This document shows, piece by piece, positions 1 through 58,900 of a stretch of DNA of 64,000 nucleotides. The position numbers were made by a program, and so were the translations under genes. The notes under the pieces were generated by a model, which saw only the letters and a list, made by a program, of their open reading frames with translations, was not told the origin of the DNA and made no database searches. Each line of letters begins with the position of its first letter. Position 1 is the stretch's first letter. Source of the DNA: Pseudomonadota bacterium (GTDB lineage: Bacteria; Myxococcota_A; UBA9042; CAIXZC01); contig JBDRIT010000251.1 of assembly GCA_043815665.1 (NCBI GenBank), forward strand, positions 2,818 to 66,817. The letters are read 5' to 3'.

Positions 1-1
1 C

Positions 2-15438: not shown

Positions 15439-15459
15439 GGGAGGTAGCCAGGTTCAGGC

Positions 15460-21493: not shown

Positions 21494-21530
21494 GGAGTCC
21501 TCCCGACAGGTGTCCGGTTTCTCGAGGCTG

Positions 21531-21570: not shown

Positions 21571-21616
21571 CCGGGCTCGTGCTCGGGCTCGGACATTCTG
21601 GGGTGTACCGGAGCCC

Positions 21617-23521: not shown

Positions 23522-23550
23522 TTCATGCCTCCATGGGGTCGAGGGGGTGT

Positions 23551-24870: not shown

Positions 24871-25061
24871 GGTGCCTCCCGCCCCGCCCCGCCCGAGCCG
24901 GGTGGTGTCGGCCAGAGTGGATCGGGGGGGGGCGTGATGTCAAGCACGCGCGGGGGCGGACCGAGCGCAAACTCAGGGTGATGACGTGGGGCGAGCGCGA
25001 TGTGCACGGATGTCTCCGGCTCTGGTACAATCCCTGGGACTTGTCCTCGCAGAGGTGCCAC

Positions 25062-44639: not shown

Positions 44640-46037
44640 ATGATGGATACAACAGTCGTCAAGGTGGGCCGCCCGGTGGCCAAAGGCTCCGGGCGGGATC
44701 TGAACTTCGTCTGCGTGTTCAGCGGGTTGAACGTCGTGGACGCCCGGCCCGTCCTGGTCCGGGACGAGATCACGATGGGTCGGACGATCCTCCCGAACCT
44801 CGGCCTCACCACGCCGGATTCCACCATGAGTCGCCATCACTTCAGACTCCAGCGCAGCGGCGCCGGGGTCGTCATCGAAGATCTCGGGTCGAGCAACGGG
44901 ACCTTCGTGAACCGGCAGGAGATTCACGGCACGTCAAATCTCCACCCCGGGGACGTGATCCGCGCGGGGGAGACCTTGTTCCTCCTCCTGGAGACCCCCC
45001 CGTCTCCTCCTGAAACCCCCCGGGACGACGATTTCGTCACGTGCAACGCCGGCCTGCAGCGCATCCTCGGACAGATCGCACGCGTCGCCGGGTCGGACAT
45101 CAGCGTTCTCCTCCTGGGAGAGACCGGCACGGGGAAGGATGTCCTGGCGCAGCACCTGCATCGCCTGAGCGCGCGGAATGGGCGCTTCGTCCCGGTGAAC
45201 TGTTCGGCGATCCCAGCCACCCTCCTGGAGGCCTCCCTGTTCGGCCATGAGCGAGGGGCCTTCACTGGCGCGGATCGGGCGTCCATCGGGATGTTCCGGA
45301 CCGCCGATCGGGGGACCCTGTTCCTGGACGAGATCGGAGAGATGGAGCCCGGACTTCAGGCCAAGCTCCTCCGAAGCCTCGAGACGCGATCGGTCATCCC
45401 GGTCGGTGCGGCGCGGGAGATCCGGGTCAACGTGCGGATCGTCGCCGCAACGAGCCGGAGTCGTCTGGAGCTGGAGTCCGGTCGCATCCGGGAGGACCTG
45501 CTGGGGCGCCTGGAAGACCTGGTGGTCCAGCTGTCCCCCCTCCGAGAGCGCCGGGAGGACATTCTCTTCTTCGCCGCCAGGGAGATGGGGATCGAGCCGG
45601 GCCAGGCCTTCGGGACCGCGGACGTGGCGGAGGCCCTGCTGCTCTACCCGTGGCCACGGAACGTACGGGAGCTGGTCCGCTCCGTACGCGCCGCGCTCCT
45701 CTTGCACGACGGGTCACCGCCGTTGCGCTGGGAAGACCTGAAGGAGGGGATCCGTCATTTCGGCGGGCTGGCGACGCCGATGCCCGGGGGACGCGCCGGC
45801 GAGTTGCATGCTCCGGTTGACTCGAAGCACCCCTTTGCAACTCCTTTTCGCCGCGATGGAATGGACGAGCTGCGAACAACCACGAAACCCACGGCGCAGC
45901 AGCCGGCCCCATCCCGAGAGACCCTCGAGGCCTTGATTGCCAAATGTGGTGGCAACGTCTCGGCCCTGGCCCGTCAGCTGGGCAAGGATCGGAAGCAGAT
46001 CTACCGCTGGCTCGAGCGCTACGGCCTGAAGGCCTGA
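44640..46037 (+). CDS. Sigma-54-dependent transcriptional activator with N-terminal FHA domain (FHA - AAA+ sigma-54 interaction domain - Fis-type HTH).
   Basis: FHA signature ([10 protein letters not shown]…SRHHFRL…[12 protein letters not shown]). Walker [15 protein letters not shown] motif, ESELFGHE-like [13 protein letters not shown], and a C-terminal HTH (…[23 protein letters not shown]). Confidence 0.9.
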
Positions 46038-46397
46038 TCAACCCTGCAAGAGCGTGGTTTTTACCTTCCAGAGGACCGGCATCAACTTGGCGAGGACCCA
46101 GCCGAGGGCGCGCAGGGCCGGTCCGTCCAGGGGCAGGGAGCGCCCACGGCGGATCGCGTGCACCGCGACGCCGCGCACATCGGAGACCGGGACGGGCGGA
46201 TCTTCCGACGTGCAGCCGTCACCCCGGGTCGTCACGAACCCCTCGCTGACCCGGAGCACGCGGTGCAGGGCGACGTCATCTCCCCGGGGGACCAGGACGA
46301 TCTCGCCGACCCGCGGCAGGCGCCGGGGCAGGGGACGGATCATCACCGGGGTGCCGTCCGGGAGGAAGGGGCGCATGCTCCCACCGCGAGCGATCAT
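46038..46397 (-). CDS. Sec11/SipW-type (S26B, Ser-His) signal-peptidase-like protein, 119 aa. Last gene of the peptide-modification cassette.
   Basis: Box B GGSMRPFLPDG contains the catalytic Ser. Box D GEIVLV…DDVALHRVLRV has His where bacterial type-I signal peptidases have Lys, the same pattern as Sec11 (…PIVHRVLR). ATG 46397 follows immediately after the radical SAM stop. The first 86 codons of the 205-codon ORF are read-through. Confidence 0.65.
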   Translation of the reverse strand: MIARGGSMRPFLPDGTPVMIRPLPRRLPRVGEIVLVPRGDDVALHRVLRVSEGFVTTRGDGCTSEDPPVPVSDVRGVAVHAIRRGRSLPLDGPALRALGWVLAKLMPVLWKVKTTLLQG

Positions 46398-47422
46398 CGG
46401 TCGCCTTCCCCGGAGTCGGGGTCCAGGCGTCGCCAGAGGGCCGTGCGCTGGCAGATTGATGGCGCCGGCCTGGCGGGATCTCCGGTCTCCCGCAGGGACC
46501 GGGCCGGGCACGCGTAGCACCAGGGCCGGTCCGCGCACTCCATGCAGCCCGTGGACGTGCCCCAGGTGAGACTCCGGAGGGGTCGGAGCGACGGAGGGTC
46601 CCGCCACAGGTCGGCGAGGCGCTCGTCCCGCACGTTTCCGAGGGTCTCGGGCCACTCGAGGCAGGGGCGTACGTTGCCGTCGGGGCCGACGTAGAGGGAG
46701 AGCCGCCCGGCGAGGCAGACGGGCTCGTCGGCCCGCACCTCCCTGCGGGGTGGGCGGTCACCGAAGGCAGTCTCCCATTGCTCCTGCCTGGAGGACTCGC
46801 CGACCCAGAGCCCATCGAGGGGGTAGCCCTCGAAGCAGCCGATGTCCTTGAGTTCGTTGATCGCTACGGTGCGGATCCCCTGGGCGAGGAGCCCGCTGCG
46901 GACCGTCGAGAAGTCCTCCTCGAAACCCTGGAGCAGGGTCACCACGGCCTCCACCCGGACCCCCAGCGCCTGCAGACGCAGGATCGTGGCGAGGCTGCGG
47001 TCGAAGGAGCCGGGGAGGCGGGTCACCTCATCGTGGACCAACCGACGGTGGCTGTAGAGGCTCACATGGACCGTGCGCACCCCGAGCTTCGCCAGGGTGT
47101 CGCAGTCCTCGGGCCGGCACAGGGTCCCCGAGGTCTTCACCAGCACCATGAATCCCCGACGCCGGGCCTCCCCGACGATGTCGAGGAAGTCCGGACGGGT
47201 GAAGACCTCCCCGCCGCTGAACAGGAGACTCATCACCCCCATGTCGGCGAGCTGTTCGAGGACATCGACGAGGTCGGCGAGGGACAGCTCCTTGGGCGCG
47301 TCGCCGCCGAGGTAGCAGTGTCGGCACCGCAGGGGGCAGCGCCAGGTCGGGTCGATGTGTGCATGGAACAGACGCCCGTGACGAAGATATCGCTGGTAGA
47401 GCCAGGCTACGTGGTCGGACAC
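46394..47422 (-). CDS. Radical SAM / SPASM-domain peptide-modifying maturase.
   Basis: CxxxCxxC cluster WRCPLRCRHCY near the N-terminus. C-terminal auxiliary-cluster Cys pattern (…VCLAGR…GNVRPCLEW…GCMECADRPWCYACPA). 342 aa. Confidence 0.9.
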   Translation of the reverse strand: MSDHVAWLYQRYLRHGRLFHAHIDPTWRCPLRCRHCYLGGDAPKELSLADLVDVLEQLADMGVMSLLFSGGEVFTRPDFLDIVGEARRRGFMVLVKTSGTLCRPEDCDTLAKLGVRTVHVSLYSHRRLVHDEVTRLPGSFDRSLATILRLQALGVRVEAVVTLLQGFEEDFSTVRSGLLAQGIRTVAINELKDIGCFEGYPLDGLWVGESSRQEQWETAFGDRPPRREVRADEPVCLAGRLSLYVGPDGNVRPCLEWPETLGNVRDERLADLWRDPPSLRPLRSLTWGTSTGCMECADRPWCYACPARSLRETGDPARPAPSICQRTALWRRLDPDSGEGDR

Positions 47423-48222
47423 GTCAACCTCCGGAAGAGCGCCCGATCCAGATCCTTGAGGGAGACGTCCATCATCCGACAGGGGACCTCGGCGACGATC
47501 TTTATGAGGCGGTCCATCAGCAGGGCAGAGAGGGTGGGGGAGCCGGGGAAGAGGACGGCGTTGCGGATCGCCAGGCGGAGGGCTTCGGCGACGGGCAGGG
47601 CGGGTCCCAGGGTGGTCCTCCCGCCTCGACGGAGGAACAGGAGGCCACCCAGGGGGAGGGTCCCCGTCCCCGTAGCGTTGACCCCCCCGGCGCGCCAGAG
47701 GCCGTCGTCACCGGGCACCAGCGTGGTGAGGTCGTCCGTGATCTTCCTGTCGGGGTCGAGCCGGTTGACGACGGTGCTCTTTCCTGTCGCGTGGGGCGCA
47801 GGGAAGGTCCAGGCGCGGCCGCTCTGCGCCGATGTGGACGCGTGGAGGACCACGCCGAGACCCTCCTCCAGCAGGGCGGCGACCCCGGTCGCAGCCAGGG
47901 TCAGGGTCAGCTGGTCCATCATCTCGCCCGGCCGCAGCGAGGGATCCAGTGTCAGTCCACATCCTCCGGAGTCGATGTACGCGACGGCACCTCGCGCCTG
48001 GAACGACAATCGCCCCCGCTCCTCTACGAATCTCGGTTCGCTCGACGCGGGCTCCGAGGGACCGATCACCACGTCGAGGATGCGATGGACGCGGCGCGGC
48101 CACGGGTCGTATCGAAGCGTCTTGGGAGGCGCCGCCGCCCGGACGAGCTTGTCCAGCCGGATGGGATCCAATGCGGGATCGAAGTGGGCTTCGAAGCTGA
48201 CCGGGCCGAAGGCGAGGTTCAT
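47407..48222 (-). CDS. HPr kinase C-terminal-domain-related P-loop protein (HprK-related kinase of RiPP-type cassettes).
   Basis: GVVLHASTSAQSGRAWTFPAPHATGKSTVVNRL matches the HprK C-domain core (…LHAS…G…GxSGxGKST). The start is set at ATG 48222 (MNLAFGPVSFEAHF…). The upstream 53 codons of the long ORF overlap the precursor ORF in another frame. Confidence 0.65.
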   Translation of the reverse strand: MNLAFGPVSFEAHFDPALDPIRLDKLVRAAAPPKTLRYDPWPRRVHRILDVVIGPSEPASSEPRFVEERGRLSFQARGAVAYIDSGGCGLTLDPSLRPGEMMDQLTLTLAATGVAALLEEGLGVVLHASTSAQSGRAWTFPAPHATGKSTVVNRLDPDRKITDDLTTLVPGDDGLWRAGGVNATGTGTLPLGGLLFLRRGGRTTLGPALPVAEALRLAIRNAVLFPGSPTLSALLMDRLIKIVAEVPCRMMDVSLKDLDRALFRRLTCPTT

Positions 48223-48265
48223 CTGCGGAGGTGGCGGTTTGGGGCTGGCGGGATGGGTCCCCGGA

Positions 48266-48415
48266 TCAGCCAGTGGGGGTCTGCCAGCCGCAGCCCCCGC
48301 CGCTGAGCGCCTGGAACAAGCATCCCGACTGGAGGACGTTCTTCTCGAAGCCCTCGCGGACCTCGACCACCGGCTGCACATAGGCCTTCTTCATCTGCTT
48401 GGCGTCATTCATCAT
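48266..48415 (-). CDS. Putative RiPP precursor peptide (49 aa): MMNDAKQMKKAYVQPVVEVREGFEKNVLQSGCLFQALSGGGCGWQTPTG.
   Basis: A perfect AGGAGG lies 8 nt upstream of ATGATG (minus strand). The peptide has a charged leader-like N-half and a Gly/Cys/Ser/Thr-containing C-half. It sits directly upstream of the kinase-like, rSAM/SPASM and peptidase genes on the same strand, with a 43-nt spacer to the next gene. Confidence 0.55.
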   Translation of the reverse strand: MMNDAKQMKKAYVQPVVEVREGFEKNVLQSGCLFQALSGGGCGWQTPTG

Positions 48416-48471
48416 GGAGTGACCTCCTACGTGGGGACAGTGTATCGAACCATCCCCGGGTGTCAATCGAC

Positions 48472-51400
48472 TCAGCGGACCAGCACCAGGTAACCTGCCC
48501 CGTTGGTCCCGACCATCATGTCCGGGTGTCCGTCGCCGGTGAAGTCACTGAGCGGGGCGATACGGAGGCCGCCGAAGTCCAGGTTGCCGGGCTCGAAGGG
48601 ATCCTCGATGGTCAGATCCAGCTCCTGGAAGCTGCCCATACCGTGGATCCCCGGGAGGTTGTGCCGGACATAGACGGAGCCGAAGAAGGAGAACCCGTTG
48701 AAGTCGCCGTACACCAGGTCTCCCGAGCACTCGGGCTGGATCGGTGAGTCGTCGAAGTTTCCGAGGAGCCCGATGGACTGGAAGTTGCCCTGGATGATGG
48801 TCCCCGCAGAGCCGACCCAGGCGCTCCCCGCAGCCGTGACCGCGCCGATCGTCAAGGTGGTCCCGATGGCTCCGCCGATCGCGTCCCCGCGGAAGAGATA
48901 GATCGACAGGCCGTTGGAGAGGGCCGCCTGCAAGTGGGCGCCGATCACCTCGGGGATCCCGTCACAGTCCAGGTCCTCGCCGAGGATCTGTCCGAAGAAC
49001 CAGTCCGCCGCCGCCAGGCTGCCCTGGGGGCGCAGCCGCACCGCTGCGGCGTCCTCGCTCCCGCTCCCGTCCAGGGTCGACGAGAGAGAGATCGCAGCGG
49101 TGCTGACCATCGCCCGTCCCCGGACGACGAAGGCTGCGGATGGCCCCGTGTACTGGCTGATGACGATGTCGTCGTACTGGGTCCCCTCGCCGTCCCCGTC
49201 CGGGAGGACGTTGCCGACCCCGCTGGCGCTGATGCCGAACCAGTCGTTGGCGGTGCCGCCGACCTGGCTGATCTTGAGGATCAGGGAGGCCGCCTGGTCC
49301 CCGGCGTCCTCGAGGTCGATCTCCAGGGGCGCGACGCCCCAGTTGGCGTTGCCGGGCACGACGTAGACCGTGTTCTTCTGGGGCGCGGCGACGACGATGT
49401 CGTCGATGGGGATCTGACCGTTCAGATCGCCATTGAAGTTGCCGGCGCCGGCGATGGGGACGAAGTTGACCCAGAGGAGCCCGGTCGTCCCGAAGACCAG
49501 GGAGACCTCCGGCGAGGTGCTGAGCACCCCGGAGGCCTTTCCGAGGTAGATGCGCACCCGCGTCCTGTCGGTGCCGTCGGCGTCCTTGTAGGAGACCACG
49601 GCGACGTCGTCGTAGCCGTCGCCGTTCACGTCCCCCACACCCGCCAGATCCAGGCCGACCTGGCTCTGGACGCCGTCGAAGAGACATTGCGTGAGCGCAT
49701 CCTGCGAGAGATCGATGGACGCGGGCGGATCCTCCCGCCCCTGCATGAGGCAGAAGCCGTTCTCGCCGTAAGCGCCGAGGAGCAGGTCTTCGAGGTCGTC
49801 GCCGTTGATGTCACCGGCGCGCACCGGGGTTGCGTCCATGTTGCCGTCGGTGTAGGAGCCGCGGAGCACCTCGGTGTATTGGAGGCGCACGGCGTTGGTG
49901 GATTTGGAGTTCGCCGTGCTGAACGGGGAGACGTTGCCCACATCGTCGTAGGCCAGCACTCCGAAGTAGAACATCGACGAGGGATCGACGCCCGTGACGA
50001 ATCGGCACGGGTCCGCTGGCGCACGGTTGTCGGGACCGGCGACGACAAAGGCTTCGAGCGCCCCGGGGGTCGCCGGCGCCGGTGGCTCAGCGTTCTGGGT
50101 CAGACCCGAGAGGTCGCAGGCCTGGTCGAAGTTCACGGGGGTGATGGGCGCGGTGGAGAAACGGACCTCGTAGGAGGCCGCAGCACCTCCGGCGTTGCCG
50201 TCGTCGCCGACGGCTGACCACTTGAGGGTCACCGCGGGTCGCCGCGGGTTGACGTCCGCCGCGGGGTTGATGGTCTGGAGGACCACGCCGGCTGGCGGGG
50301 TCACGTCCACGTTGAGGGTCAGGGTCGTCGCTCCGTTGTTCCCGGCCGCATCGGTGGCGGTCGCGGTGAGGGTCCGCTGAGCGGCCTCCCCCAGGGTGAC
50401 GTCGGAGGGCCAGGAGTAGGCGAAGGGCGCTCCGGTCATGGACGTCTCGCCGAGGGTTGTCGGCGGGCCACCCGTGTCGGTGGTCAGAGTCACCTCGCCG
50501 CCAGTGAGGTTGTCGCCGGTGACGTTCACCGCGACGGTGAGCTGGCAGCCACCCGCACCGGGGTTCTTGTCGTTGGCCTGGTTGAGGATGCTCGTGGAGG
50601 GCGTCGGTGCAGTGAAGGCAACCACGGGGAGCGTGAGGTCCACGCTGTAGGACCAGTCACCCGTGGTGTCCCCGGTCTCTGCACCGCCGACGAGGAGTCG
50701 GGCCTCGAAGGCGACGCTGTCCCCGTCATCCAGGGTCAGCGGGAACGCCACGGAGCTGCCTGCGGTGACTGCGAGGGTGGCCTCCACCTGACCGTCCTTG
50801 TACAGCCGCACCTGATCCACCGCACCACAGCCCGTGGTGAAGGTCGCCGTGAGGTCGGTCGCGATGGTCGCACAGCTCTGGCCGGGCGGGTCGCAGTCGG
50901 CCGTGTTGTACCAGCCGGAGGCGGGCGCGTCGATGAAGCTCACCTGGCACGCGGTGAAGGTGAGGGTCAGGTTCGCCGAGAGGACGGAGGTGTTTCCGAC
51001 CCCGTCGACGATCACGACCTGCACCTGTCTGTACTCGATCTCCGCGTCGACCGTCCCGACGGTGATGAGCTCGCTGACGGTGACGAGGGACTCGTCGGGC
51101 AGGGTCCCCGTCTTGGCGGGGACGCCACCGGCGCACCCGGTGAAGGATGCGTCCGGGCATTTGGCCAGCTTGATCGTCCAGCCCGCTGCGCCGGACGCCT
51201 CGAACTCCGTCAGGAACTGGAAGCCCGGGATCGTCAGCGACGCGTCGTCGCCATCGGTGAAGCCGACCGCTGGTGCAGGCTGGTTGAGGGTCGCCGATGG
51301 CGGGCTGCGGTCCACGAAGATGTACTCGGGTGACGTGACGGCAAGCGCCTCGTTGTTCGCGTCGTCCCGGACCCAGCCGCGGAGCTGGTAGGCCCCGTCC

Positions 51401-54400
51401 TGGGCGAGGATGCCGCTGAAGGTGACCTGCCCCTGTGCGTTCGGTGCCCCGGAAGAGAGCTCGACCCAGGTGCCCCCCACGTTCCGCTCCAGGTGGACGT
51501 CGTTCCCGTCCGTGCCGCTGGCCACGAGGTGTGTGTCCGGCGAGGAGCCCTGGATCAGGGGCGAGCTGGCCGGCGCTGTGAACGAGAGCACCGGCACCGC
51601 CGTGTCGACGAAGACCTCGATCCCGTATGGCGTGCTCACGTTGCCGACCTGGTCGATGGCCAGGATCTGGAGGGTGTTCAGCCCTTCGAAGAGTGCCAGC
51701 GCCAGATCCACCTGGGAGCCGGCCATGCTCACCTCCTCGATGAGGATCCCGTTGTCCCAGACCTTCATGGTGCCGGTCTCTGCGCTGGTGAGGGTGACCT
51801 CTGCGATGTACGTCGACGGCGCGGCGTCGACCTCCGCCTGGTTGAGGGTCCCGAGGGGCGGCAGGGTGTCGGATGGGAAGGCCACACCCGAGATCACCGG
51901 GGCGACGATGTCCAGCCAGTAGTGGCGGTCCTGCTTCGTGTAGTTCGGCGTGTTGGTGGAGAGGACCCAGGTCCCCGTGTTGGAGAGGGCCTCGGCGATC
52001 ATTCGATGGTACCCGGACGGGAGCGCCGCGACTTCGGCCGCCGTGAGCTGCACGAACACGCTGCCGCCGCCGTGGTTCACGGACTTGACCACCCGGAACT
52101 TCACCGGGCCGTCAGTGGTCTCACAGAGAGCTGCACCCTGGGCGGCGAGGGTCGGGTGCGCGGAGCAGATCCGCAGGGGCGCCGTCTCCGACGAGAAGAG
52201 TTCCGCCGGCTGGGACTTGGCGTCGACTTTATGGGCGCCGTTCTTCCAGGGGAACATGCACTTCTTCGACCCGTCGACCGGCTTGCAGATGCCCGTGGCG
52301 GAGCAGTCGCCGTTGTCCACGCAGAGATCGAAGGAGACGTAGTCGGAGCCCTCGAGCCTCACCTGAGTGGTCGTGAGGAAGAACTGGACTGCGAAGATCA
52401 AGCTGTCCGTGTTGCCCGCAGCGTCGGAGACCGACACCACGATCTGGTGCACACCCTCCCCGAAAGTCATCTGCGGGAACACGACCTCTCCGGTCTGCCC
52501 GTCGGGGATCCCCTCGCCAAGGATCACCGAGGTCGCCTCGGGAGCGCCGATCTCCGGCGTGATCAGCAGGTCCACAGACTGGCCCGCCTCGAGGCCCTGA
52601 ACCCCCACGATGAGGGTGTACTGGTAGCCCTCGGCAGCGGGGTCCTCATCGAGGCTGGCCGGCATCAACTCAAAGTCCGGCTGCATGAATCCGGTGATCA
52701 CCGGTGCCGTGCGGTCGACGATGACGGTCACGGCGGTCGAGTCTGCAGACTGTCCGGCGAGGTCCTCCACCGAAGCGCCGAGGGTGCACGTGGCGCCGTC
52801 CGCGAGCGCTACGCCTGGCCAGGACACCGCATCTCCAGCGACGGCTCCGGGGATCGTCGTCGGGGCGCCACAGTCCACCGTCAGCGACGCCGCGCTGCCG
52901 TTCTCTGCGTTGGTGGTCACCGCGGTGACCACCAGGCTGCAACCGGGGAGGCCGGCCGCACAGAGGTTCGAGGCCAGGTTGAGGATCGCACCATCCTCGG
53001 GCGCGGTCAGGGCGATGGTCGGGGTGCCGTCCTTGAGGAGCACCGAGCGGGTGCCGGAGTACCCGACCTCCGCGTGGGAGGGATGGATCGCAGAAGCCTG
53101 GATCTTCACGGGGACGCCAGGGGTGAGGCCGTCGAGGGAGAACTGGTAGAGGCCGCCCGGGCCCGCCGTCTGATTCCCGAACTCCGCACCGTCCACGAAG
53201 AGGGTGACCGTCGCGTCCTCGAGGGGGATCGCACCGTCGGAGGAGGTCACGGACAGGGTGACCGGGACCGGCTGGCTCGAGACCACGATGTTCTTGGTGG
53301 GGCTGGTGAAGACGACCTTGGGTGCGTCCACGGCGAAGGAGAAGGTTGTCTGGGCCGGCACCGTGACGTGCCCCGCGGCGTCCGTCACCGTGAGGTCGAT
53401 CGTGTTGGTGCCGGGGGTGATGGTGAGGCCGTCGAAGTTCACTTCACCCGTGTCGGCGTCCGGGAAGAGACAGAGCGCCGCCTCGCCGTTGAAGGAGAGG
53501 CAGACCTCAACGAGATCCGGGTGGGCCTCGCCGGTGACCATGGCGTTGACGGCCACCTGGTTGCCGAGCTGATCCGCGTCGGTGTCCGGACAACTCGTCG
53601 GATCACAGATCGCGCCGTCCTGGGGCGTCAGGACGAAGATCTGTGGCCACAAGGCGTCGAGCTCCAGGGACACCTCGGTGAGGCTGCCCGGGTTCGCCGA
53701 GGCGGCGTTGCCGAAGCCGTCCATCGCGGCCGCAGTGAGGGTGTAGATCCCTTCGTCGAGCAGGGAGAGGTCCTCCATGACGCTGAACCCGAGCAGGGTC
53801 GCCTGGACCTCCGTGGTCCACGCCTCGGCGCCGCCCTGGGTGAGGGACAGGGTCACGATCTGGCCTTTCAGGAAGAGAGTCGCCCCCACGACCGAGAAGG
53901 CCTCCGCCGGGACGATCTCGCCGTCTTCTGGGTTGGTGAGGATCAGGAGGGGCGCGGGGAGGCCCACCGTGAGGGAGATCTCGGGAGACACCACCGGCGG
54001 GGCGTTGTTGTCCCTGGCGCGGCAGATGACCTGGCTCCCCACCAGCGCGGTGTTGATCTGGACATCCATGGTGTACTGCCCGTCCGGGGCCGCCGCGGAC
54101 ACGGTGAACATCCCCCCGTCGCGCCAGAGGGACCCGGACTGGTTCTTCCGGTACTGGACCTGGAGGACCGTCCCTGCGTCGGCGAGGGGCGCGTACACCA
54201 GGAAGGAGGTGTCCATGACGGACAGGGTCCCCGGCACGGTGTCAGCCGCCGCCAGGAGGGTGGCGCCGGACAGGGGTGAGAGGATCATCACGTTGGCCGG
54301 GGCCAGGAGCGAAACGACGTTGACGGACGCGGTCGCCAGGGCTCCGCAGCACGCGTCGGATGCGGCGACGGCGATCTCGTGCAGACCATCCGAGGCCAGG

Positions 54401-55548
54401 GTGATGGTGTCGACGGTGAAGACGCCGCCAGGCGCGGAGGTCACTGCGACCTCCACCCCGTCGATGGTGACCGTGATCTCGTCATCCGGGCCGAGGCCGG
54501 TGGCCAGGCCGTCAAGGACGAGCTGGATGCCGTTCTCCGGAACACCGTCCAGATCGTCGCCCAGGTTGACCGTGGTCGGGGACGGGGACGTGATCTCCAG
54601 GGTCGGGGGCACCGTGTCCAGGGTGTAGTCGAGCGCCGTGGACTCCGTCCGGGACTCGTCGGCGCTGTCGGCGACGTAGGCCGTGACGTTGGTCGCCTGG
54701 CAGTCGAGGTCGTCCACGCTGGCGGCGACGGTGATCTGGAGCTCCGCTTCACCGCCGACCAGGTTCACCTGCTCCGAGGCGCCCGTGTCCGTCTCCAGCC
54801 ATGCCGTGTCGCAGTCGGTTCCGCCGTTGGTGACCGTGAAGGTCGCCTGGAACCCGTCCATGTCCGGATCCCCGTCGACTGACAGACAGCTCTGGTTGCT
54901 CGGGGCCAGGGTTACGCCGCAGCTCCCCGTGTCCACGCAGACGGTCTTCGTGACGGTGATCAGATCCTCGGCAGAGATCACCATCTCGTGGCAATCGGGG
55001 TCCGTCGCGTTGGTGAGATGGACCATCGAGAAGCTGAAGATGTCGCCGGGGAGGTCCTGGGTGGCCACGGTGTTGCCGTCGATGTCCAGGGAGATCGTCG
55101 TCCCTGCCGGGACGTTCAGGGTCGTCACCTGGATGTCGACTTCGAGGGCCGGGGTCAGCGGGTAGAGGTCGTCCGAGGTTTCTTCGTTCTTGACGAGGTC
55201 CACCTGGTCGACGTCGGTCCCGACGCAGCCCGCGACGGGGGTCATGAGGCAGAAGGACAGCTCCGCCGGTGGGGGAGGCGGGACGTCCACGTCTGGCTCC
55301 ACCTCGTCGGGGACATCGGGGACGTCGGGGACGTCAGGGACGTCGGGGACATCGGAGACGTCCGGGACGTCCCCGGTGAACTCGTCCAGGACGTCCGTGA
55401 GGTCGAAGTCCACGACATCAGCGTCCCCCTCGAGATCAACCGAACTGTCCGGGACGTCCGTGATCGGGAGGGGCGGTGAGCTGTCCGGGCAGCCGATGAC
55501 GAGGGTCAGCATCATCGCCAGAACCGCTGCGATCGTGACTCGATTCAT
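48472..55548 (-). CDS. Giant surface lipoprotein (2358 aa). Order of parts: lipoprotein signal, (DVP)n acidic linker, many Ig-like/beta-sandwich segments, C-terminal FG-GAP/VCBS-type beta-propeller repeats.
   Basis: MNRVTIAAVLAMMLTLVIGC is a lipoprotein signal with GGAGG 8 nt upstream. FG-GAP-like motifs GDINGDDLEDLLLGAY, GDVNGDGYDDVAVVSY and FTGDGHPDMMVG lie near the C-terminus. Continuous 7-kb ORF. Confidence 0.8.
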   Translation of the reverse strand: MNRVTIAAVLAMMLTLVIGCPDSSPPLPITDVPDSSVDLEGDADVVDFDLTDVLDEFTGDVPDVSDVPDVPDVPDVPDVPDEVEPDVDVPPPPPAELSFCLMTPVAGCVGTDVDQVDLVKNEETSDDLYPLTPALEVDIQVTTLNVPAGTTISLDIDGNTVATQDLPGDIFSFSMVHLTNATDPDCHEMVISAEDLITVTKTVCVDTGSCGVTLAPSNQSCLSVDGDPDMDGFQATFTVTNGGTDCDTAWLETDTGASEQVNLVGGEAELQITVAASVDDLDCQATNVTAYVADSADESRTESTALDYTLDTVPPTLEITSPSPTTVNLGDDLDGVPENGIQLVLDGLATGLGPDDEITVTIDGVEVAVTSAPGGVFTVDTITLASDGLHEIAVAASDACCGALATASVNVVSLLAPANVMILSPLSGATLLAAADTVPGTLSVMDTSFLVYAPLADAGTVLQVQYRKNQSGSLWRDGGMFTVSAAAPDGQYTMDVQINTALVGSQVICRARDNNAPPVVSPEISLTVGLPAPLLILTNPEDGEIVPAEAFSVVGATLFLKGQIVTLSLTQGGAEAWTTEVQATLLGFSVMEDLSLLDEGIYTLTAAAMDGFGNAASANPGSLTEVSLELDALWPQIFVLTPQDGAICDPTSCPDTDADQLGNQVAVNAMVTGEAHPDLVEVCLSFNGEAALCLFPDADTGEVNFDGLTITPGTNTIDLTVTDAAGHVTVPAQTTFSFAVDAPKVVFTSPTKNIVVSSQPVPVTLSVTSSDGAIPLEDATVTLFVDGAEFGNQTAGPGGLYQFSLDGLTPGVPVKIQASAIHPSHAEVGYSGTRSVLLKDGTPTIALTAPEDGAILNLASNLCAAGLPGCSLVVTAVTTNAENGSAASLTVDCGAPTTIPGAVAGDAVSWPGVALADGATCTLGASVEDLAGQSADSTAVTVIVDRTAPVITGFMQPDFELMPASLDEDPAAEGYQYTLIVGVQGLEAGQSVDLLITPEIGAPEATSVILGEGIPDGQTGEVVFPQMTFGEGVHQIVVSVSDAAGNTDSLIFAVQFFLTTTQVRLEGSDYVSFDLCVDNGDCSATGICKPVDGSKKCMFPWKNGAHKVDAKSQPAELFSSETAPLRICSAHPTLAAQGAALCETTDGPVKFRVVKSVNHGGGSVFVQLTAAEVAALPSGYHRMIAEALSNTGTWVLSTNTPNYTKQDRHYWLDIVAPVISGVAFPSDTLPPLGTLNQAEVDAAPSTYIAEVTLTSAETGTMKVWDNGILIEEVSMAGSQVDLALALFEGLNTLQILAIDQVGNVSTPYGIEVFVDTAVPVLSFTAPASSPLIQGSSPDTHLVASGTDGNDVHLERNVGGTWVELSSGAPNAQGQVTFSGILAQDGAYQLRGWVRDDANNEALAVTSPEYIFVDRSPPSATLNQPAPAVGFTDGDDASLTIPGFQFLTEFEASGAAGWTIKLAKCPDASFTGCAGGVPAKTGTLPDESLVTVSELITVGTVDAEIEYRQVQVVIVDGVGNTSVLSANLTLTFTACQVSFIDAPASGWYNTADCDPPGQSCATIATDLTATFTTGCGAVDQVRLYKDGQVEATLAVTAGSSVAFPLTLDDGDSVAFEARLLVGGAETGDTTGDWSYSVDLTLPVVAFTAPTPSTSILNQANDKNPGAGGCQLTVAVNVTGDNLTGGEVTLTTDTGGPPTTLGETSMTGAPFAYSWPSDVTLGEAAQRTLTATATDAAGNNGATTLTLNVDVTPPAGVVLQTINPAADVNPRRPAVTLKWSAVGDDGNAGGAAASYEVRFSTAPITPVNFDQACDLSGLTQNAEPPAPATPGALEAFVVAGPDNRAPADPCRFVTGVDPSSMFYFGVLAYDDVGNVSPFSTANSKSTNAVRLQYTEVLRGSYTDGNMDATPVRAGDINGDDLEDLLLGAYGENGFCLMQGREDPPASIDLSQDALTQCLFDGVQSQVGLDLAGVGDVNGDGYDDVAVVSYKDADGTDRTRVRIYLGKASGVLSTSPEVSLVFGTTGLLWVNFVPIAGAGNFNGDLNGQIPIDDIVVAAPQKNTVYVVPGNANWGVAPLEIDLEDAGDQAASLILKISQVGGTANDWFGISASGVGNVLPDGDGEGTQYDDIVISQYTGPSAAFVVRGRAMVSTAAISLSSTLDGSGSEDAAAVRLRPQGSLAAADWFFGQILGEDLDCDGIPEVIGAHLQAALSNGLSIYLFRGDAIGGAIGTTLTIGAVTAAGSAWVGSAGTIIQGNFQSIGLLGNFDDSPIQPECSGDLVYGDFNGFSFFGSVYVRHNLPGIHGMGSFQELDLTIEDPFEPGNLDFGGLRIAPLSDFTGDGHPDMMVGTNGAGYLVLVR
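55300..55380 (-). repeat. Short tandem 9-bp repeat (GGACGTCGG / GGACATCGG on the plus strand) encoding a (DVP)n / DVSDVPDVPDVPDVPDVPDE acidic linker.
   Basis: Direct reading: gacatcggg gacgtcggg gacgtcagg gacgtcggg gacatcgga gacgtccgg gacgtcc. Confidence 0.8.
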
Positions 55549-55647: not shown

Positions 55648-55926
55648 TCATTTGACATTCGCCAAGAGGACTCCGCGCGCAGTCAGAGTTCCCAGGAAAT
55701 GATCGACATCCGAAGCGGCGCGTTCATGGGACACCTCGTAGCCCTCGTCGAGCCTGACCACGAGGTCGCGCGCCGTCTCGGCGCCGGCCTCCACGGCCTC
55801 CCAGAGAAAGACCGCCGTCTCGTTCCCAAGGACGATGAGGTCCCCCTCGGGCGCCAGGATGAAGATCTCTTCACCGACGCGTCGGACGCCGACGTTTTCG
55901 GCCTTATGGAATGTGGTCAATGGCAT
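55648..55926 (-). CDS. PqqD-family protein (RiPP recognition element / peptide chaperone), 92 aa.
   Basis: …VGEEIFILAPEGDLIVLGNETAVFLWEAVEAGAETARDLVVRLDEGYEVSHERAASDVDHFLGTLTARGVLL… matches the PqqD pattern (x-then-LN-ETAxxIWxLxDGxxTxxEIxxxLxEEYxV…DVxxFLxxLxxxGLL). Confidence 0.7.
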   Translation of the reverse strand: MPLTTFHKAENVGVRRVGEEIFILAPEGDLIVLGNETAVFLWEAVEAGAETARDLVVRLDEGYEVSHERAASDVDHFLGTLTARGVLLANVK

Positions 55927-55950: not shown

Positions 55951-58900
55951 TCAGTCGAGGTTCACGGACAGATCGTACAGGGTACCGACGGAGCTGTTGT
56001 AGCCCGTCACCCGGATCAGGTAGGTGGACAGGGTGGTCGACGAGTAGCTGAACTCCTCGTCGTCGGAGCTCGACGACGAGCTTGCCACGTAGCCGACGCA
56101 GTTGCCCTGCTTGTAGAGGTAGATGTCCAGGTCCCCGTCCGCGTGGGCGAACTCGATCTTCGTCGTGAGCGTCTGGCCGGCACCGAGCAGCACCGCGTAC
56201 CAGTCCTCGTCACCCCCGAGGCAGATCGCCAGGTCTTTCTTGACGCCCGTGCCGATGGAGACTGCGGTGGTGCAGGTGTTGTTGGGCTCCATCCCTTCGT
56301 CGGTCTTGCAACCGCACTGGAAGTCGGTGCAGTCCTCGTAGACCGCACAGCTCCCGCAGAGCCCGACGCAGCCGTCGGCGCCGCAGACCTTTCCCTCGCA
56401 GGCGGGCTGACAGACGCACAGCCCCTGGACGCAGAGGTCCTGCAGGCCGGCGCATACGCCACAGTCGGCGCCGCAGCCGTCGTCGCCACAGACCTTTCCC
56501 TCGCAGGCGGGCTGGCACACACACAGCCCGTCGACGCAGAGGTCCTGTGGGCCGCCGCATTGTCCGCAGACTCCGTCGCAGCCGTCGGCGCCGCACTCCA
56601 GCCCGTCACAGGCCGGCTGGCAGATGCACTGGCCCTCCACGCAGGCGTCCTGGGGTCCGGTGCATTCTCCGCAGGACCCGCCGCAGCCGTCACCGCCGCA
56701 GGAGATCCCCTCGCAGGCGGGCTGACAGAGACAGGCACCGTCCACGCAGAGATCCTGTGGCCCGAAGCACTCACCGCAGGTGCCGCCGCACCCGTCGTCG
56801 CCGCACTCCGTGCCGGCGCAGGTGCCGATACAGACGCACTGGTCGTCGATGCAGAGGTCCTGGGGGTTCTCACAGTTGCCGCAGGAGAGTCCGCAGCCGT
56901 CGTCACCGCAGGCCTTTTCCTCGCACTGGGGCAGGCAGCAATCCAGGGTCAGGAAGTAGGATCCGAAGTCCTCCTCGGTGAGGCCCTCCACCACCACGTA
57001 GTAGGGTATGCCGGGCAGGGCCTTGAAGGTCACGGCGACGGGCCCGCCAGGGACGCCGGAGTCCCCGAAGCCCACGCACGCCCACTCCGACGCGCAGAAC
57101 TCCTCGAGGGCCGCGAGGCCGCCGTGGAAGACGTGCCCGGAGAGGATCGCCGTGACCACGGTCACCTGGGTCACGGAGACGGCGTACTTGTCGTCCGGAC
57201 CTTCCCACGGCGTCCCGGTGCACCGGTCGTAGCTCTCGAGGGTGCTGGGCTTGTCCGTGGAGTTGCCGCTGATCCCGTCGTAGCACCCCAGCTCCCAGAG
57301 GGTCTCACAGGGGGGCGGGACCTGGACGCACTGGTAGAAGCCGCAGATCTGTCCCGGCGCGCAGTCGCTGTCGTCCACGCAGTCGGGCTCCACAATGAGG
57401 ACCTGGAGGGAGTAGGCGCTCTCTCCACCGGCCTGGGTGGACACCCGGAGCCGATACACGCCTGGGGAGAGGGCCGTCCACGAGAGCGCCATCGTCCCCT
57501 CGCTGCCCACGGCCGAGACGAGGGGATCCCCGCATGAAGGGGGGACCAGGACAAGGGCGAGGCCGGTCTCATCGTCGGCCTGGGTGAGGGTGACCGAGAC
57601 GAGCTGGCCCTCGGTCAACGCGATGGAATACCAGTCCTCGTCCGTGTCGGGGCAGAGCAGGAGTCCCGCATGGTTCCCGAGGCCGATCGGGGAGGCGTCG
57701 AGGCAGGTCTCGTTTGGCTCCCCGCCGGGGTCCTCGGCGCACACCTCGCAGAGCCCCTCGGTGCAGAGCTCGCCGTCGGCGCACGTCCCGCAGATTCCAC
57801 CACAGCCATCATCTCCGCAGGCGGGCCCCTCGGCGCATTGGAGGACGCAGCACCCGATCTCGAGGCTGAACTGGCCGGCCCCGTCCACGGCGGCGCCGTC
57901 CACGACGATGTGGTAGTCGGTGCCCGCGGTCGCGTCGAAGGTCAGCACCTCGTCCACCTCGATGGCCGGTTGATCGACCAGCCCGGCGCAGGCCTGCTCC
58001 GGGGAGCACCAGGTGTCCAGGACCGCGAGCGCTGCGTCGTAGGTCTGGTCGCCCAGGGTCAGGGTGACCCGGGTATCCTTGGGGAGGGTCAGCTTGTAGG
58101 TCTTCTCGGGGCCCTCGTAGAGCACGTCCGTGCAGCTGTCGTAGGCCGTCCAGGCCGTGGACGTGCCCAGGGTACTCCCCATGAGCTGCACCCCGCAGCC
58201 GATGGATGCGGCGAGGGGGCAGGCCGGCTTGAGCACACACTCGCTCTCCTGGCACCAGTAGCCCCCGGCGCAGCCGCCGTGATCCTGGCAGGAGACCGCG
58301 CAGATCCCTCCGGCCTCCTCGCAGCCGTAGGGGTGGCAGGCGAGGAAGGCCCCCGCATCGCAGACGCCGATCCCGTCGCAGACCGCCGCCTCGGTGGCGA
58401 TGCCGTTCTCACAGGTCGGCACGCCGCAGATGACCTCAGCGCCCCACCACGCGCAGGCACCGACCCCGTCACAGACCCCGGTGAGGCCGCAGGTCTCGGG
58501 GGCCTCCTCCTCGCAGTCGTCCTGCGGATCGAGGCCGGCCGCGATGGGACGGCAGCCGCCGGCACCGTCGCAGGTCTGGCACCCGCCGCAATCGCTCTCC
58601 GGGTCGACTCCGTCCACCTGGGGGATGCATCCTCCGTCGCCGTCACAGGTTTCGCAGACGCCGCACCAGGCCTGGGGATCCTCCCCCGCCGGGAGCGGCG
58701 CGCAGGCGCCCTCACCGTTGCAGAGTGAGCAGACGCCGCAGTCTCCGGCGGAGTCCGTCCCCTCGGCCACGGACGTGCACGTTCCGACGAACTCCACGAG
58801 GACACAGGACTCGCAGACGCCGTCACAGGCCGTATCGCAGCAGACGCCGTCCACGCAGAGGCCCGAGAGGCACTGGCCGCTGTCTCCGCAGATCTGGCCA

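What the first reader, a model, noticed from the sequence alone, without database searches (positions are those of the whole stretch)
46038..48415. Compact RiPP-like cassette: precursor ORF, HprK-related kinase, radical SAM/SPASM, Sec11-type peptidase, with a PqqD-like gene upstream
Four co-directional, tightly packed minus-strand genes. (1) A 49-aa ORF with a perfect AGGAGG SD, a charged leader-like half and a Cys/Gly/Ser/Thr-rich C-half. (2) A P-loop protein related to the HPr kinase C-terminal domain, overlapping the next gene by 16 nt. (3) A radical SAM enzyme with a C-terminal SPASM-type Cys cluster, the hallmark of peptide maturases. (4) A Ser-His signal-peptidase-like protein whose start abuts the rSAM stop. 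A PqqD-family (RRE) protein is encoded 7 kb upstream on the same strand (55648..55926). I recall TIGRFAMs describing HprK-related kinases that co-occur with PqqD-like and rSAM/SPASM proteins (an HPr-rel-A-type system). I cannot recall a described product or a precursor family that matches this peptide. The combination of a kinase-like protein with an rSAM/SPASM enzyme and an ER-type signal peptidase is not a pattern I can assign to a characterised RiPP class. It may therefore be an undescribed modification system. One speculative route: Ser/Thr phosphorylation and elimination, then a radical-mediated crosslink to Cys, then proteolytic leader removal.
Basis: partly seen in the sequence, partly recalled or inferred. 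Interest (0 to 1): 0.88.

Follow-up and report, generated by a model that had tools for sequence, protein, structure and literature searches.

The report
Kinase–radical-SAM peptide cassette beside giant lipoprotein
A conserved gene set appears to make a small modified two-cysteine peptide; it uses the toolkit of the recently described linear polyphosphorylated peptides plus a radical SAM enzyme, and it is always next to a giant cell-surface protein gene.

Summary
All four minus-strand genes and the upstream PqqD gene are real.

- **Conservation.** The order PqqD, ~2350-aa FG-GAP/Ig lipoprotein, 49-aa ORF, kinase-like gene, rSAM/SPASM, small peptidase recurs in nine distinct close loci. It also recurs in three distant lineages (rSAM 33-42% identical).
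- **Precursor.** The 49-aa ORF has its own conserved sigma-70-type promoter. It carries a lasso/LPP-type leader (KKxYxxPxV…FEK) and a core with two invariant Cys (C-x8-12-C).
- **Peptidase.** It is a minimal Sec11/SipW-type Ser-His-Asp enzyme.
- **Closest known system.** The kinase, discrete RRE, SpI-type leader peptidase and YxxP leader match the core of the linear polyphosphorylated peptide (LPP) family (Popov et al., Nat Commun 2026).
- **Differences from LPP.** The locus lacks the LPP NTP-transferase and exporter. It adds an rSAM/SPASM enzyme and a two-Cys core. It comes from a high-GC, Myxococcota-like MAG.
- **Family membership.** No component reaches any NCBIfam cut-off (SCM, HPr-rel-A, GeoRSP, PqqE, sactisynthases).

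Verdict: a new variant of a known kind. The chemistry (phosphorylation plus Cys thioether crosslinks) and any role with the giant lipoprotein are inferred, not shown.

The parts
55648..55926 (-). PqqD-family RiPP recognition element (92 aa), the discrete RRE of the system
   Evidence: PF05402 E 7.6e-12; weak NCBIfam hits to lasso PqqD, PQQ PqqD and ScmD, all below cut-off. It is the only PqqD in the window. It holds the same position upstream of the giant gene in the close clade and in distant L038. In L019 and L029 it is adjacent to the kinase-like gene.
48472..55548 (-). Giant lipoprotein (2358 aa from ATG 55548; GGAGG SD; lipobox LVIGC) with Ig-like Big_13 domains and C-terminal FG-GAP repeats; a conserved partner gene of unknown role
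   Evidence: Pfam Big_13 2.5e-14, FG-GAP 5e-8, FG-GAP_3 8e-8. Start and SD read from sequence. Full-length orthologs sit immediately upstream of the small ORF in L001 (69% identical), L039 (39%) and L038 (31%), all with lipoprotein-type N-termini (contexts).
48439..48466 (-). Sigma-70-type promoter TTGACA-N16-TACACT in the 56-nt gap between the giant gene and the precursor gene
   Evidence: It is the only promoter-like site in 45900..48600, against 0.1 expected. Both hexamers are conserved in 9 distinct loci while the spacer sequence varies.
48266..48415 (-). Precursor peptide gene (49 aa): MMNDAKQMKKAYVQPVVEVREGFEKNVLQSGCLFQALSGGGCGWQTPTG, with AGGAGG SD at 48423..48428
   Evidence: Conserved in every syntenic locus and in distant ones. 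Shared plan: (K/R)(K/R)xYxxPx(V/I/L/M), then a hydrophobic-E-(K/R) motif, then a small residue and C-x8-12-C-x3-7. pN/pS 0.18-0.85. Annotated at NCBI only as a hypothetical protein, MFH1533243.1. No Pfam or NCBIfam match.
47407..48222 (-). HprK/PEPCK-fold P-loop protein (271 aa), ScmC-like; the putative peptide kinase
46394..47422 (-). Radical SAM/SPASM enzyme (342 aa) with no N-terminal RRE domain
   Evidence: PF04055 and PF13186. CX3CX2C at residues 29-36. Invariant SPASM Cys 236, 254, 293, 296, 302, 305. Best solved relatives are SkfB (1e-13) and PqqE (3e-11). The best NCBIfam score is 110 bits against cut-offs of 265-850, so it belongs to no named family.
46038..46397 (-). Minimal S24/S26-fold, archaeal/Sec11/SipW-type peptidase (119 aa); the putative leader peptidase
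   Evidence: TIGR02228 archaeal signal peptidase I: E 3.3e-4 here, 2.2e-5 in L012 and 4.4e-12 (46.1 bits, cut-off 51.85) in the L019 homolog, which also hits SipW. Peptidase_S24 hit for the L019 homolog. Ser7 is kept in 10 of 11 sequences (Cys in the L019 homolog); M8, P10, H45-R46 and G59 are invariant and D60 nearly invariant. ATGA overlap with the rSAM stop.

Best explanation
The locus encodes a RiPP pathway that shares its recruitment and processing logic with the linear polyphosphorylated peptides (LPPs) and adds a radical SAM step.

Proposed sequence of events:
1. The 49-aa precursor is transcribed from its own sigma-70-type promoter. It is probably also read through from the giant gene.
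2. The discrete PqqD-type RRE binds the leader's YxxPxV motif. It presents the peptide to enzymes that have no RRE of their own.
3. The HprK/PEPCK-fold kinase phosphorylates a Ser/Thr of the core. The best guess is the invariant Ser30 in NVLQSGC.
4. The rSAM/SPASM enzyme modifies the core at or through its two invariant cysteines. Sacti/ranthi-type thioether crosslinks are the most likely outcome.
5. The Sec11/SipW-type Ser-His-Asp peptidase removes the leader. By analogy with the LPP F-E-T cleavage site, the cut would fall after the conserved G-F-E-K motif.

The product probably acts at the cell envelope together with, or in the same process as, the giant FG-GAP/Ig lipoprotein whose gene is embedded in the locus.

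Shown here: gene content, conservation, folds, motifs and the promoter. Inferred by analogy: RRE binding, phosphorylation and the cleavage site. Inferred from composition only: the thioether chemistry and the link to the lipoprotein.
For: - **Synteny.** The six-gene order is kept in nine distinct close loci. It is also kept in lineages with rSAM identity of 33-42%, kinase-like 23-30%, peptidase 30-38% and giant protein 31-39%.
- **Precursor.** Leader motif and Cys pair are conserved across all of these loci, and in giant-less cassettes L019, L024, L025 and L037.
- **Promoter.** Conserved in nine loci.
- **Kinase-like protein.** Fold and catalytic motif are supported. A kinase-PqqD fusion exists, P0048.
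- **rSAM.** It lacks an RRE and has a complete SPASM. Its nearest solved relative is a sactisynthase.
- **Peptidase.** Ser-His-Asp type.
- **LPP precedent.** In LPPs, an SpI-like peptidase cleaves after FET only when the RRE is present, the YxxP motif is essential, and the HprK-like kinase polyphosphorylates core Ser3 (PMC13381572). HprK homologs also phosphorylate lasso precursors (PMC8498205).
- **Envelope context.** LPP clusters lie in capsule loci. L019 lies between Wza-like and Wzc-like genes. Here the neighbour is a giant lipoprotein.
Against: - No biochemical data exist for any member.
- No Ser/Thr position is conserved across the wider family. L037 has none between the putative cleavage site and the first Cys.
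- The spacing from YxxP to FEK is 2 residues shorter than in the LPP consensus, so the cleavage site is uncertain.
- No acceptor residue for a thioether is conserved. The two Cys could instead form a disulfide or bind a metal.
- No exporter, NTP transferase or immunity gene was found in the locus, or among the window ORFs that were scanned.
- One distant locus (L039) has no PqqD gene upstream of the giant gene.
- The window protein itself scores only 16 bits against ScmC and 13 bits against HprK_rel_A.
Confidence: 0.62

Rival explanations
1. A secreted antimicrobial sactipeptide or ranthipeptide (bacteriocin). In this reading the kinase is a tailoring enzyme, and the adjacency to the giant gene reflects only inheritance of a neighbourhood.
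For: rSAM/SPASM with a Cys-containing core and a hypervariable stretch between the Cys. SkfB is the best solved relative. NCBIfam hits include StsB, AlbA and PapB.
Against: No exporter, immunity gene or bacteriocin-type protease was found in any of the loci. The giant gene stays adjacent at 31-39% protein identity. All sactisynthase and ranthisynthase models score far below their cut-offs.
Confidence: 0.15
2. The peptide is the precursor of, or itself becomes, a crosslinked cofactor or small subunit of a partner protein. This would resemble PQQ, mycofactocin or the QHNDH gamma subunit, with the giant FG-GAP lipoprotein as the partner.
For: PqqD plus rSAM/SPASM plus a dedicated peptidase is the grammar of PQQ and mycofactocin pathways. 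PqqE and MftC are among the hits. The PqqD and precursor genes bracket the giant gene in deeply diverged lineages. No exporter or immunity gene is present. The QHNDH precedent is from my own knowledge and was not checked here.
Against: Only the two Cys are invariant in the core, whereas cofactor precursors keep their reactive residues fixed. Giant-less cassettes exist (L019). The lipoprotein is exported, and nothing in the locus would carry the peptide across the membrane. PqqE scores 85 bits against 381 and MftC 71 against 265.
Confidence: 0.13
3. The enzymes modify the giant lipoprotein or another protein, and the small ORF is a regulatory or accessory peptide rather than the substrate.
For: The enzymes and the giant gene are tightly linked. 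rSAM/SPASM enzymes such as anSME do modify proteins (general knowledge).
Against: The small ORF carries the RRE-binding YxxP motif and is conserved with the enzymes even where no giant gene is present. The enzymes appear cytoplasmic, because no signal peptides are visible in the sequences, while the lipoprotein is exported. The rSAM is not close to anSME.
Confidence: 0.05
4. The small ORF is a chance ORF and the neighbouring genes are unrelated.
For: None beyond the short length of the ORF and the lack of any database family.
Against: The frame, length, SD, promoter and motifs are conserved in all loci, and pN/pS is below 1. The genes overlap (16 nt and ATGA).
Confidence: 0.02

Closest known systems
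Linear polyphosphorylated peptide (LPP) gene clusters of Bacillota (Popov et al., Nat Commun 2026, PMC13381572)
   Same: Both have a discrete PqqD-type RRE, an HprK-like kinase, and an archaeal/SipW-type signal-peptidase-I-like leader peptidase with a Ser-His-Asp triad. Both leaders carry YxxPxV followed by a hydrophobic-Glu-X motif just before the cleavage site (FET in LPP, FEK here). Both are embedded among cell-envelope genes.
   Different: The window locus has no NTP transferase (LppN) and no MsbA-like exporter (LppD). It has an extra rSAM/SPASM enzyme. Its core is short (about 18-24 aa) with two invariant Cys, not a 45-aa linear core. The spacing from YxxP to FEK is 2 residues shorter. 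The host is a 68% GC Myxococcota-like MAG, whereas LPPs were reported as restricted to Bacillota. The RRE gene is separated from the rest of the cassette by a 7-kb lipoprotein gene.
SynChlorMet (SCM) cassette, NCBIfam TIGR04248-TIGR04251 (ScmC, ScmD, ScmE, ScmF); catalogued but uncharacterised
   Same: Both combine a ScmC-type HprK-like protein, a PqqD homolog and rSAM/SPASM enzymes. ScmC is the best NCBIfam hit and the Pfam label for the kinase-like protein.
   Different: All scores are far below cut-off: ScmC 16 against 125, ScmD 19 against 100, ScmE 84 against 400. There is one rSAM, not two. A leader peptidase and an identifiable precursor are present. My memory of the TIGRFAM text is that no precursor was identified for SCM; I did not check this here.
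Phosphorylated lasso peptides (paeninodin type)
   Same: Both have a YxxP/WxxP leader bound by a discrete PqqD-type RRE, and an HprK homolog that phosphorylates the precursor before leader removal. Lasso-type clusters were recovered with the same kinase profile (L020: Asn synthase, HprK-like and ABC).
   Different: The locus has no lasso cyclase and no B2 transglutaminase-type protease. The core has no Asp/Glu at positions 7-9 for a macrolactam. The rSAM and the SpI-type peptidase are extra.
Sactipeptide and ranthipeptide maturation (SkfB, AlbA, StsB, PapB, CteB)
   Same: The rSAM has a full SPASM domain and the substrate core contains Cys. SkfB is the best solved relative.
   Different: The rSAM belongs to no known maturase family (all below cut-off) and has no fused RRE. 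The partners (kinase and SpI-type peptidase) are not known for these classes.
HPr-rel-A system (TIGR04352, TIGR04353, TIGR04355)
   Same: Both pair an HprK-related P-loop protein with a PqqD-family protein. Relatives of the window protein hit HprK_rel_A and HprK_rel_B weakly.
   Different: The window protein scores 12.9 bits against a cut-off of 200. The window PqqD does not hit TIGR04353 at E <= 0.01.

Membership tests
LPP (linear polyphosphorylated peptide) clusters | SpI (archaeal/SipW-type) leader peptidase with a Ser-His-Asp triad | tested here: met
   TIGR02228 hits (3.3e-4 here; 4.4e-12 in the L019 homolog, which also hits SipW). Ser7 kept in 10 of 11 sequences, H45-R46 and G59 invariant, D60 nearly invariant. 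LppS triad S29/H68/D93.
LPP (linear polyphosphorylated peptide) clusters | Discrete RRE (PqqD-like) encoded in the cluster | tested here: met
   PF05402 E 7.6e-12. It lies 7 kb away, but that position is conserved.
LPP (linear polyphosphorylated peptide) clusters | HprK-like kinase | tested here: met
LPP (linear polyphosphorylated peptide) clusters | NTP transferase (LppN) in the core set | tested here: not met
   No such gene lies within 10 kb in any syntenic locus, nor among the window ORFs that were scanned.
LPP (linear polyphosphorylated peptide) clusters | MsbA-like ABC exporter (LppD) in the core set | tested here: not met
   Same contexts and scans as for LppN; no ABC transporter was found.
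LPP (linear polyphosphorylated peptide) clusters | Leader consensus YxxPxVLxHQxIxFET followed by xxS | tested here: inconclusive
   YVQPVV and GFEK are present, and a Ser follows 5 residues after FEK. The spacing is 2 residues shorter, and L, HQ and I are not matched.
LPP (linear polyphosphorylated peptide) clusters | Polyphosphorylated Ser on an otherwise linear core | not testable with these tools
   This needs mass spectrometry. The added rSAM/SPASM enzyme argues that the product is not simply linear.
SynChlorMet cassette | ScmC, ScmD, ScmE and ScmF each above the NCBIfam cut-off, with two rSAM/SPASM genes | tested here: not met
   16 against 125, 18.7 against 100, 84 against 400 and 61 against 400 bits. 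The window holds a single rSAM gene.
HPr-rel-A system | HprK_rel_A (TIGR04352) and PqqD_rel_X (TIGR04353) above cut-off | tested here: not met
   12.9 against 200 bits. The window PqqD has no TIGR04353 hit at E <= 0.01.
GeoRSP system | GeoRSP rSAM (TIGR04303) and PqqD (TIGR04302) above cut-off | tested here: not met
   108.7 against 400 bits. The window PqqD has no TIGR04302 hit.
Sactipeptide/ranthipeptide | rSAM with a SPASM domain holding auxiliary Fe-S clusters, and Cys donors in the core | tested here: met
   CX3CX2C plus invariant SPASM Cys. Two invariant Cys in the core.
Sactipeptide/ranthipeptide | S-to-C(alpha/beta/gamma) thioether in the product; maturase belongs to a known family | not testable with these tools
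   The chemistry needs MS/NMR. The tested part failed: AlbA 57 against 850 and StsB 81 against 625 bits, so it is not a member of a named maturase family.
Lasso peptide | Asn-synthetase-like cyclase, B2 protease, and an Asp/Glu acceptor at core position 7-9 | tested here: not met
   No such genes are in the locus. The window core has no Asp/Glu. Only the YxxP leader and the RRE are shared.
PQQ / mycofactocin / heme d1 (NirJ) / anSME-type rSAM | rSAM above the family cut-off | tested here: not met
   PqqE 85 against 381, MftC 71 against 265, NirJ2 110 against 500 bits. anSME is not among the best 25 families shown.

The most novel reading that the evidence does not exclude
The matured peptide is phosphorylated and Cys-crosslinked, and it is a dedicated ligand or small subunit of the giant FG-GAP/Ig lipoprotein. 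The RiPP cassette and the 2350-aa surface protein would then form one functional unit. The nearest analogy is the rSAM-crosslinked gamma subunit of quinohemoprotein amine dehydrogenase, which sits inside a beta-propeller complex.
Probability: 0.15. Interest if true: 0.8.

Novelty: new variant of a known kind. Interest (0 to 1): 0.6.

Why it matters
- **A possible new RiPP subclass.** The locus would combine the LPP/lasso-type kinase chemistry with rSAM/SPASM chemistry on one short peptide. That combination appears in none of the papers I could search.
- **A wider host range.** RRE-dependent SpI-type leader peptidases were first reported in 2026 and described as restricted to Bacillota. This locus would extend them to Gram-negative, Myxococcota-like bacteria.
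- **A candidate precursor family.** ScmC-type cassettes have been catalogued for years without a known substrate. This locus supplies a candidate.
- **A functional clue.** The gene for a giant surface lipoprotein lies between the RRE and precursor genes in deeply diverged lineages. Relatives sit inside polysaccharide-export loci. Both point to a cell-envelope role rather than a classic bacteriocin role. The function of LPPs and phosphorylated lasso peptides is still unknown, so this is a testable lead.

Tried and rejected
- **First AF2 model.** The model of the kinase-like protein from 11 close homologs was poor (pLDDT 61.5), and its Foldseek search gave nothing usable. A 61-sequence alignment fixed this.
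- **Profile of close homologs against PDB sequences.** No hits.
- **Peptidase alone against PDB sequences.** Only noise.
- I do not use that result as evidence.
- **Sigma-54 promoter search.** I searched for the consensus because a sigma-54 activator lies next door. There were no matches with up to 1 mismatch.
- **Terminator scan around the cassette.** None found.
- **Literature searches that found nothing relevant.**
  - SynChlorMet
  - ScmC
  - HPr kinase + SPASM + precursor peptide
  - FG-GAP + radical SAM + PqqD
  - HprK + PqqD + radical SAM
- **Regex search for LPP-like precursors** in the rSAM-less relatives (L026, L027, L030 and others). Nothing convincing.
- **Lipoprotein-signal reading of the precursor.** I considered and rejected it. 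A small residue precedes the first Cys, but the leader is charged and has no hydrophobic stretch.
- **Lasso-peptide reading.** I considered and rejected it. There is no cyclase, and the core has no acidic acceptor.
- **GTDB genome scan.** It found only one related genome, an uncultured Myxococcales MAG, so host taxonomy remains thin.


Full report
**1. What is in the sequence**

The window is about 68% GC. On the minus strand, the ORF list and the sequence show the following genes.
- A 49-aa ORF at 48266..48415, with AGGAGG 7 nt upstream of the ATG.
- After a 43-nt gap, a 271-aa ORF. Its most likely start is ATG 48222 and it ends at 47407.
- A 342-aa ORF at 46394..47422. Its GTG start overlaps the previous stop region by 16 nt.
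- A 119-aa ORF at 46038..46397. Its ATG overlaps the previous TGA (ATGA).

Upstream of the 49-aa ORF, after a 56-nt gap, lies a 2358-aa gene at 48472..55548. I place its start at ATG 55548, which has a GGAGG SD, and the product has the lipobox LVIGC. Upstream of that gene is the 92-aa PqqD gene at 55648..55926. The window holds one copy of each component.

**2. Family assignments**

*PqqD.* PF05402, E 7.6e-12.

*rSAM enzyme.*
- PF04055 and PF13186.
- CX3CX2C sits at residues 29-36, which leaves no room for a fused RRE.
- The SPASM cysteines are conserved: Cx12Gx4C, then Cx2Cx5Cx2C.
- Its best solved relatives are the sactisynthase SkfB (1e-13) and PqqE (3e-11).
- Its best NCBIfam scores are about 110 bits, against cut-offs of 265-850. 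It is therefore a peptide-type rSAM/SPASM enzyme that belongs to no named family.

*271-aa protein.*
- In the local Pfam copy it has no hit. In NCBIfam it has only weak hits to ScmC (16 bits) and HprK_rel_A (13 bits).
- Its homologs carry the precomputed label PF27840 ScmC.
- An exhaustive profile search found 958 representatives at E <= 1e-3, but only 4 at E <= 1e-30.
- Of 61 relatives scanned, 48 match ScmC, 41 match HprK_rel_A, 32 match HprK_rel_B and 5 match PEPCK.
- H127, G147-K148-(S)-T150 and D163(D164) are invariant across all lineages.
- The family profile aligns this HASA…GxSGxGK(S/T)TL…DD block with the nucleotide site of ATP-PEPCK 1j3b (E 2e-7).
- An AF2 model built on 61 sequences has pLDDT 91.8.
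- It is a divergent PEPCK/HprK-fold P-loop phosphotransferase with its catalytic motif intact.

*119-aa protein.*
- It hits archaeal-type signal peptidase I weakly (TIGR02228, E 3.3e-4). The homolog in L019 reaches 46.1 bits (cut-off 51.85) and also hits SipW and Peptidase_S24.
- Across 11 diverse homologs, M8, P10, H45-R46 and G59 are invariant and D60 is nearly so. The nucleophile Ser7 is kept in 10 of 11, with Cys in L019.
- This is the Sec11/SipW Ser-His-Asp pattern, not the Ser-Lys pattern of bacterial signal peptidase.

**3. Comparative evidence**

*Rarity.* The kinase-like protein has only 13 homologs in the word-indexed search of 5.8 billion sequences. It has one hit among the GTDB species genomes, an uncultured Myxococcales MAG.

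*Close clade.* Every locus with enough flank shows the same order: PqqD, a ~2345-aa FG-GAP/Big_13 protein, a 48-50-aa ORF, the ScmC-like gene, rSAM/SPASM, and the small peptidase. A convergent sigma-54 activator with an FHA domain follows.

*Distant lineages.*
- Relatives at only 33-42% rSAM identity have the same arrangement: L015/L039, L016/L038 and L017.
- Their giant proteins are full-length orthologs at 39% and 31% identity.
- In L038 the PqqD gene again sits upstream of the giant gene. In L039 it does not.

*Giant-less cassettes.* A metagenome scan, scored with HMMs I built from these proteins, found cassettes without a giant gene.
- L019 has the order ScmC-like, PqqD, 43-aa ORF, rSAM/SPASM, peptidase. 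It is inserted between a Poly_export/SLBB (Wza-like) gene and a Wzz/GNVR/AAA_31 (Wzc-like) gene.
- L025 and L037 have a small ORF between the rSAM and ScmC-like genes. L037 also has a PqqD gene just upstream of the rSAM gene.
- L024 has a small ORF just before the ScmC-like gene.
- P0048 is a ScmC-PqqD fusion.

PqqD, the kinase-like protein, the rSAM enzyme, the peptidase and the small ORF therefore form one functional module. In one branch, that module is locked to a giant lipoprotein gene.

**4. The precursor**

Close-clade sequences share KKxYxxPx(V/I/L)EVxEGFE(K/R)NVLxSGC, then 9-10 variable residues, then CGWxTPSG. The exception is L005/L006, whose C-terminal tail after the second Cys is CPVVGEN. 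Distant and giant-less members keep only the following plan:
- (K/R)(K/R)xYxxPx(V/L/M);
- about 6-8 residues later, a hydrophobic-E-(K/R/A) motif;
- a small residue, then the first Cys;
- C-x8-12-C;
- a 3-7-residue tail.

pN/pS among the nine close sequences is 0.18-0.85.

In the gap upstream lies the only sigma-70-like site between 45900 and 48600: TTGACA-N16-TACACT at 48466..48439, against 0.1 expected. Its hexamers are conserved in nine loci while the spacer varies. NCBI annotates the ORF as a hypothetical protein. No Pfam or NCBIfam family matches it.

**5. Comparison with what is known**

The decisive paper is Popov et al., Nat Commun 2026 (PMC13381572).
- It defines linear polyphosphorylated peptides (LPPs) of Bacillota.
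- The core genes are an archaeal-type SpI/SipW-like peptidase (LppS, triad S29/H68/D93), a discrete RRE (LppB), an HprK-like kinase (LppK), an NTP transferase (LppN) and an MsbA-like exporter (LppD).
- The precursor leader consensus is YxxPxVLxHQxIxFET, followed by xxS.
- LppK puts several phosphates on core Ser3.
- LppS cleaves after T-1 only in the presence of the RRE. F-3, E-2 and T-1 matter for cleavage.
- The clusters lie in capsule loci, and their biological role is unknown.
- The authors state that SpI-like peptidases had not been described in RiPP pathways before, and that LPPs are restricted to Bacillota.

The window cassette shares four of the LPP core elements (precursor type, kinase, RRE, SpI-type peptidase) and the F-E-X motif. 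It lacks LppN and LppD in the locus and among the window ORFs scanned. It adds an rSAM/SPASM enzyme and a two-Cys core.

It also resembles the uncharacterised SynChlorMet cassette (ScmC, ScmD and two rSAM/SPASM enzymes), but it fails every cut-off. It is not a lasso system: it has no cyclase, no B2 protease and no acidic acceptor. Lasso-type clusters were nevertheless recovered with the same kinase profile (L020). HprK homologs do phosphorylate lasso precursors (PMC8498205).

**6. Most likely mechanism**

1. The RRE binds the YxxPxV leader and presents it to the enzymes. This follows from the motif, from the absence of an RRE on the rSAM enzyme, and from the LPP and lasso precedent.
2. The kinase phosphorylates a core Ser/Thr. 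Ser30 is invariant in the close clade and lies 5 residues after FEK. No position is universal across the wider family, so this step is moderately likely and the site is uncertain.
3. The rSAM/SPASM enzyme acts on or through the two invariant Cys. Thioether crosslinks are the best guess, given SkfB-like relatives and a complete SPASM domain. Nothing here excludes other chemistry.
4. The SpI-type peptidase removes the leader. The cut would fall after FEK by analogy with FET. An alternative site is directly before Cys32, where the -1 residue is small in 7 of 8 lineages.

Export and final destination are unexplained.

I rate the overall reading (an LPP-related RiPP pathway with an rSAM step acting on this peptide) at about 0.6. 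Phosphorylation I rate at about 0.5. Thioether formation I rate at about 0.4. A functional link to the lipoprotein, beyond co-regulation, I rate at about 0.3-0.4.

**7. Rivals**

- A plain bacteriocin is weakened by the absence of exporter and immunity genes and by the deep conservation of the giant-gene adjacency.
- A cofactor or subunit role for the giant protein is attractive, but giant-less cassettes and the variable core count against it as a general explanation.
- The giant protein as the substrate is unlikely, given the leader motif on the peptide.
- A chance ORF is excluded.

**8. Novelty and score**

The kind of system is known: an RRE-dependent RiPP with an HprK-like kinase and an SpI-type leader peptidase. 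I found the following in none of the papers or curated family libraries I could search:
- the rSAM/SPASM addition;
- the two-Cys precursor family;
- the occurrence outside Bacillota;
- the conserved insertion of a giant FG-GAP lipoprotein gene between the RRE and the precursor.

I class it as a new variant of a known kind, with interest 0.6.

Noticed in passing
window 44640..46037 (+): A sigma-54 activator with an N-terminal FHA domain lies convergent to the cassette. Its stop abuts the peptidase stop with no gap. This arrangement is conserved in the close clade but not in distant lineages. No sigma-54 promoter consensus occurs anywhere in the window.
   Followed up: partly
window 55951..60303 (-): A 1450-aa Cys-rich protein with C-terminal PPC domains ends 24 nt upstream of PqqD. 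It is present in several close loci (L003, L008, L010, L013). In L001 a Memo gene takes its place, and in L038 a TsaD gene. It is probably not part of the system.
   Followed up: partly
window 2..28046: A run of giant secreted repeat proteins. Three tandem genes are rich in thrombospondin type-3 repeats, and two of them also have MopE metal-binding motifs (2..5311, 5570..11095, 11014..15438). Two are Dicty_CTDC Cys-repeat proteins (15460..20715 on the minus strand, 24978..28046). A 1250-aa M3 peptidase lies at 21617..25369.
   Followed up: no
L026 and L027 (e.g. L027 6527..11114): Contigs of 60% GC carry NTP_transf_5, an SpI-like peptidase, an HprK-like protein, PqqD and an ABC exporter in a row. 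That is the full LPP core set, apparently outside Bacillota, whereas the LPP paper reports the family as restricted to Bacillota. I could not find a precursor.
   Followed up: partly
L019 11990..12409: The peptidase homolog of this giant-less cassette has Cys in place of the nucleophile Ser (SGCMKP against GGSMRP). This may be a Cys-His variant of the SpI-type leader peptidase.
   Followed up: no
L039 (= L015 extended) 1..1730: This distant locus has the giant gene, small ORF, ScmC-like gene, rSAM and peptidase, but no PqqD gene upstream. A divergent Omp85/POTRA gene sits there instead. My PqqD HMM finds no PqqD anywhere in the 18.8 kb. Its rSAM is 80 aa longer, with an insertion just after the CX3CX2C motif.
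   Followed up: partly
L005/L006 small ORF (L005 5524..5670): One close-clade lineage has a precursor with a different C-terminus (…CVLQGPSAGTCPVVGEN). It lacks the otherwise conserved CGWxTPSG tail, so the tail is not essential to the system.
   Followed up: no
L030/L031/L034-L036 (e.g. L030 5034..11175): These loci have ScmC-like, PqqD and SpI-like peptidase genes with no rSAM. A 1388-aa protein with no Pfam match precedes them. This may be another case of a large protein gene beside such a cassette.
   Followed up: no
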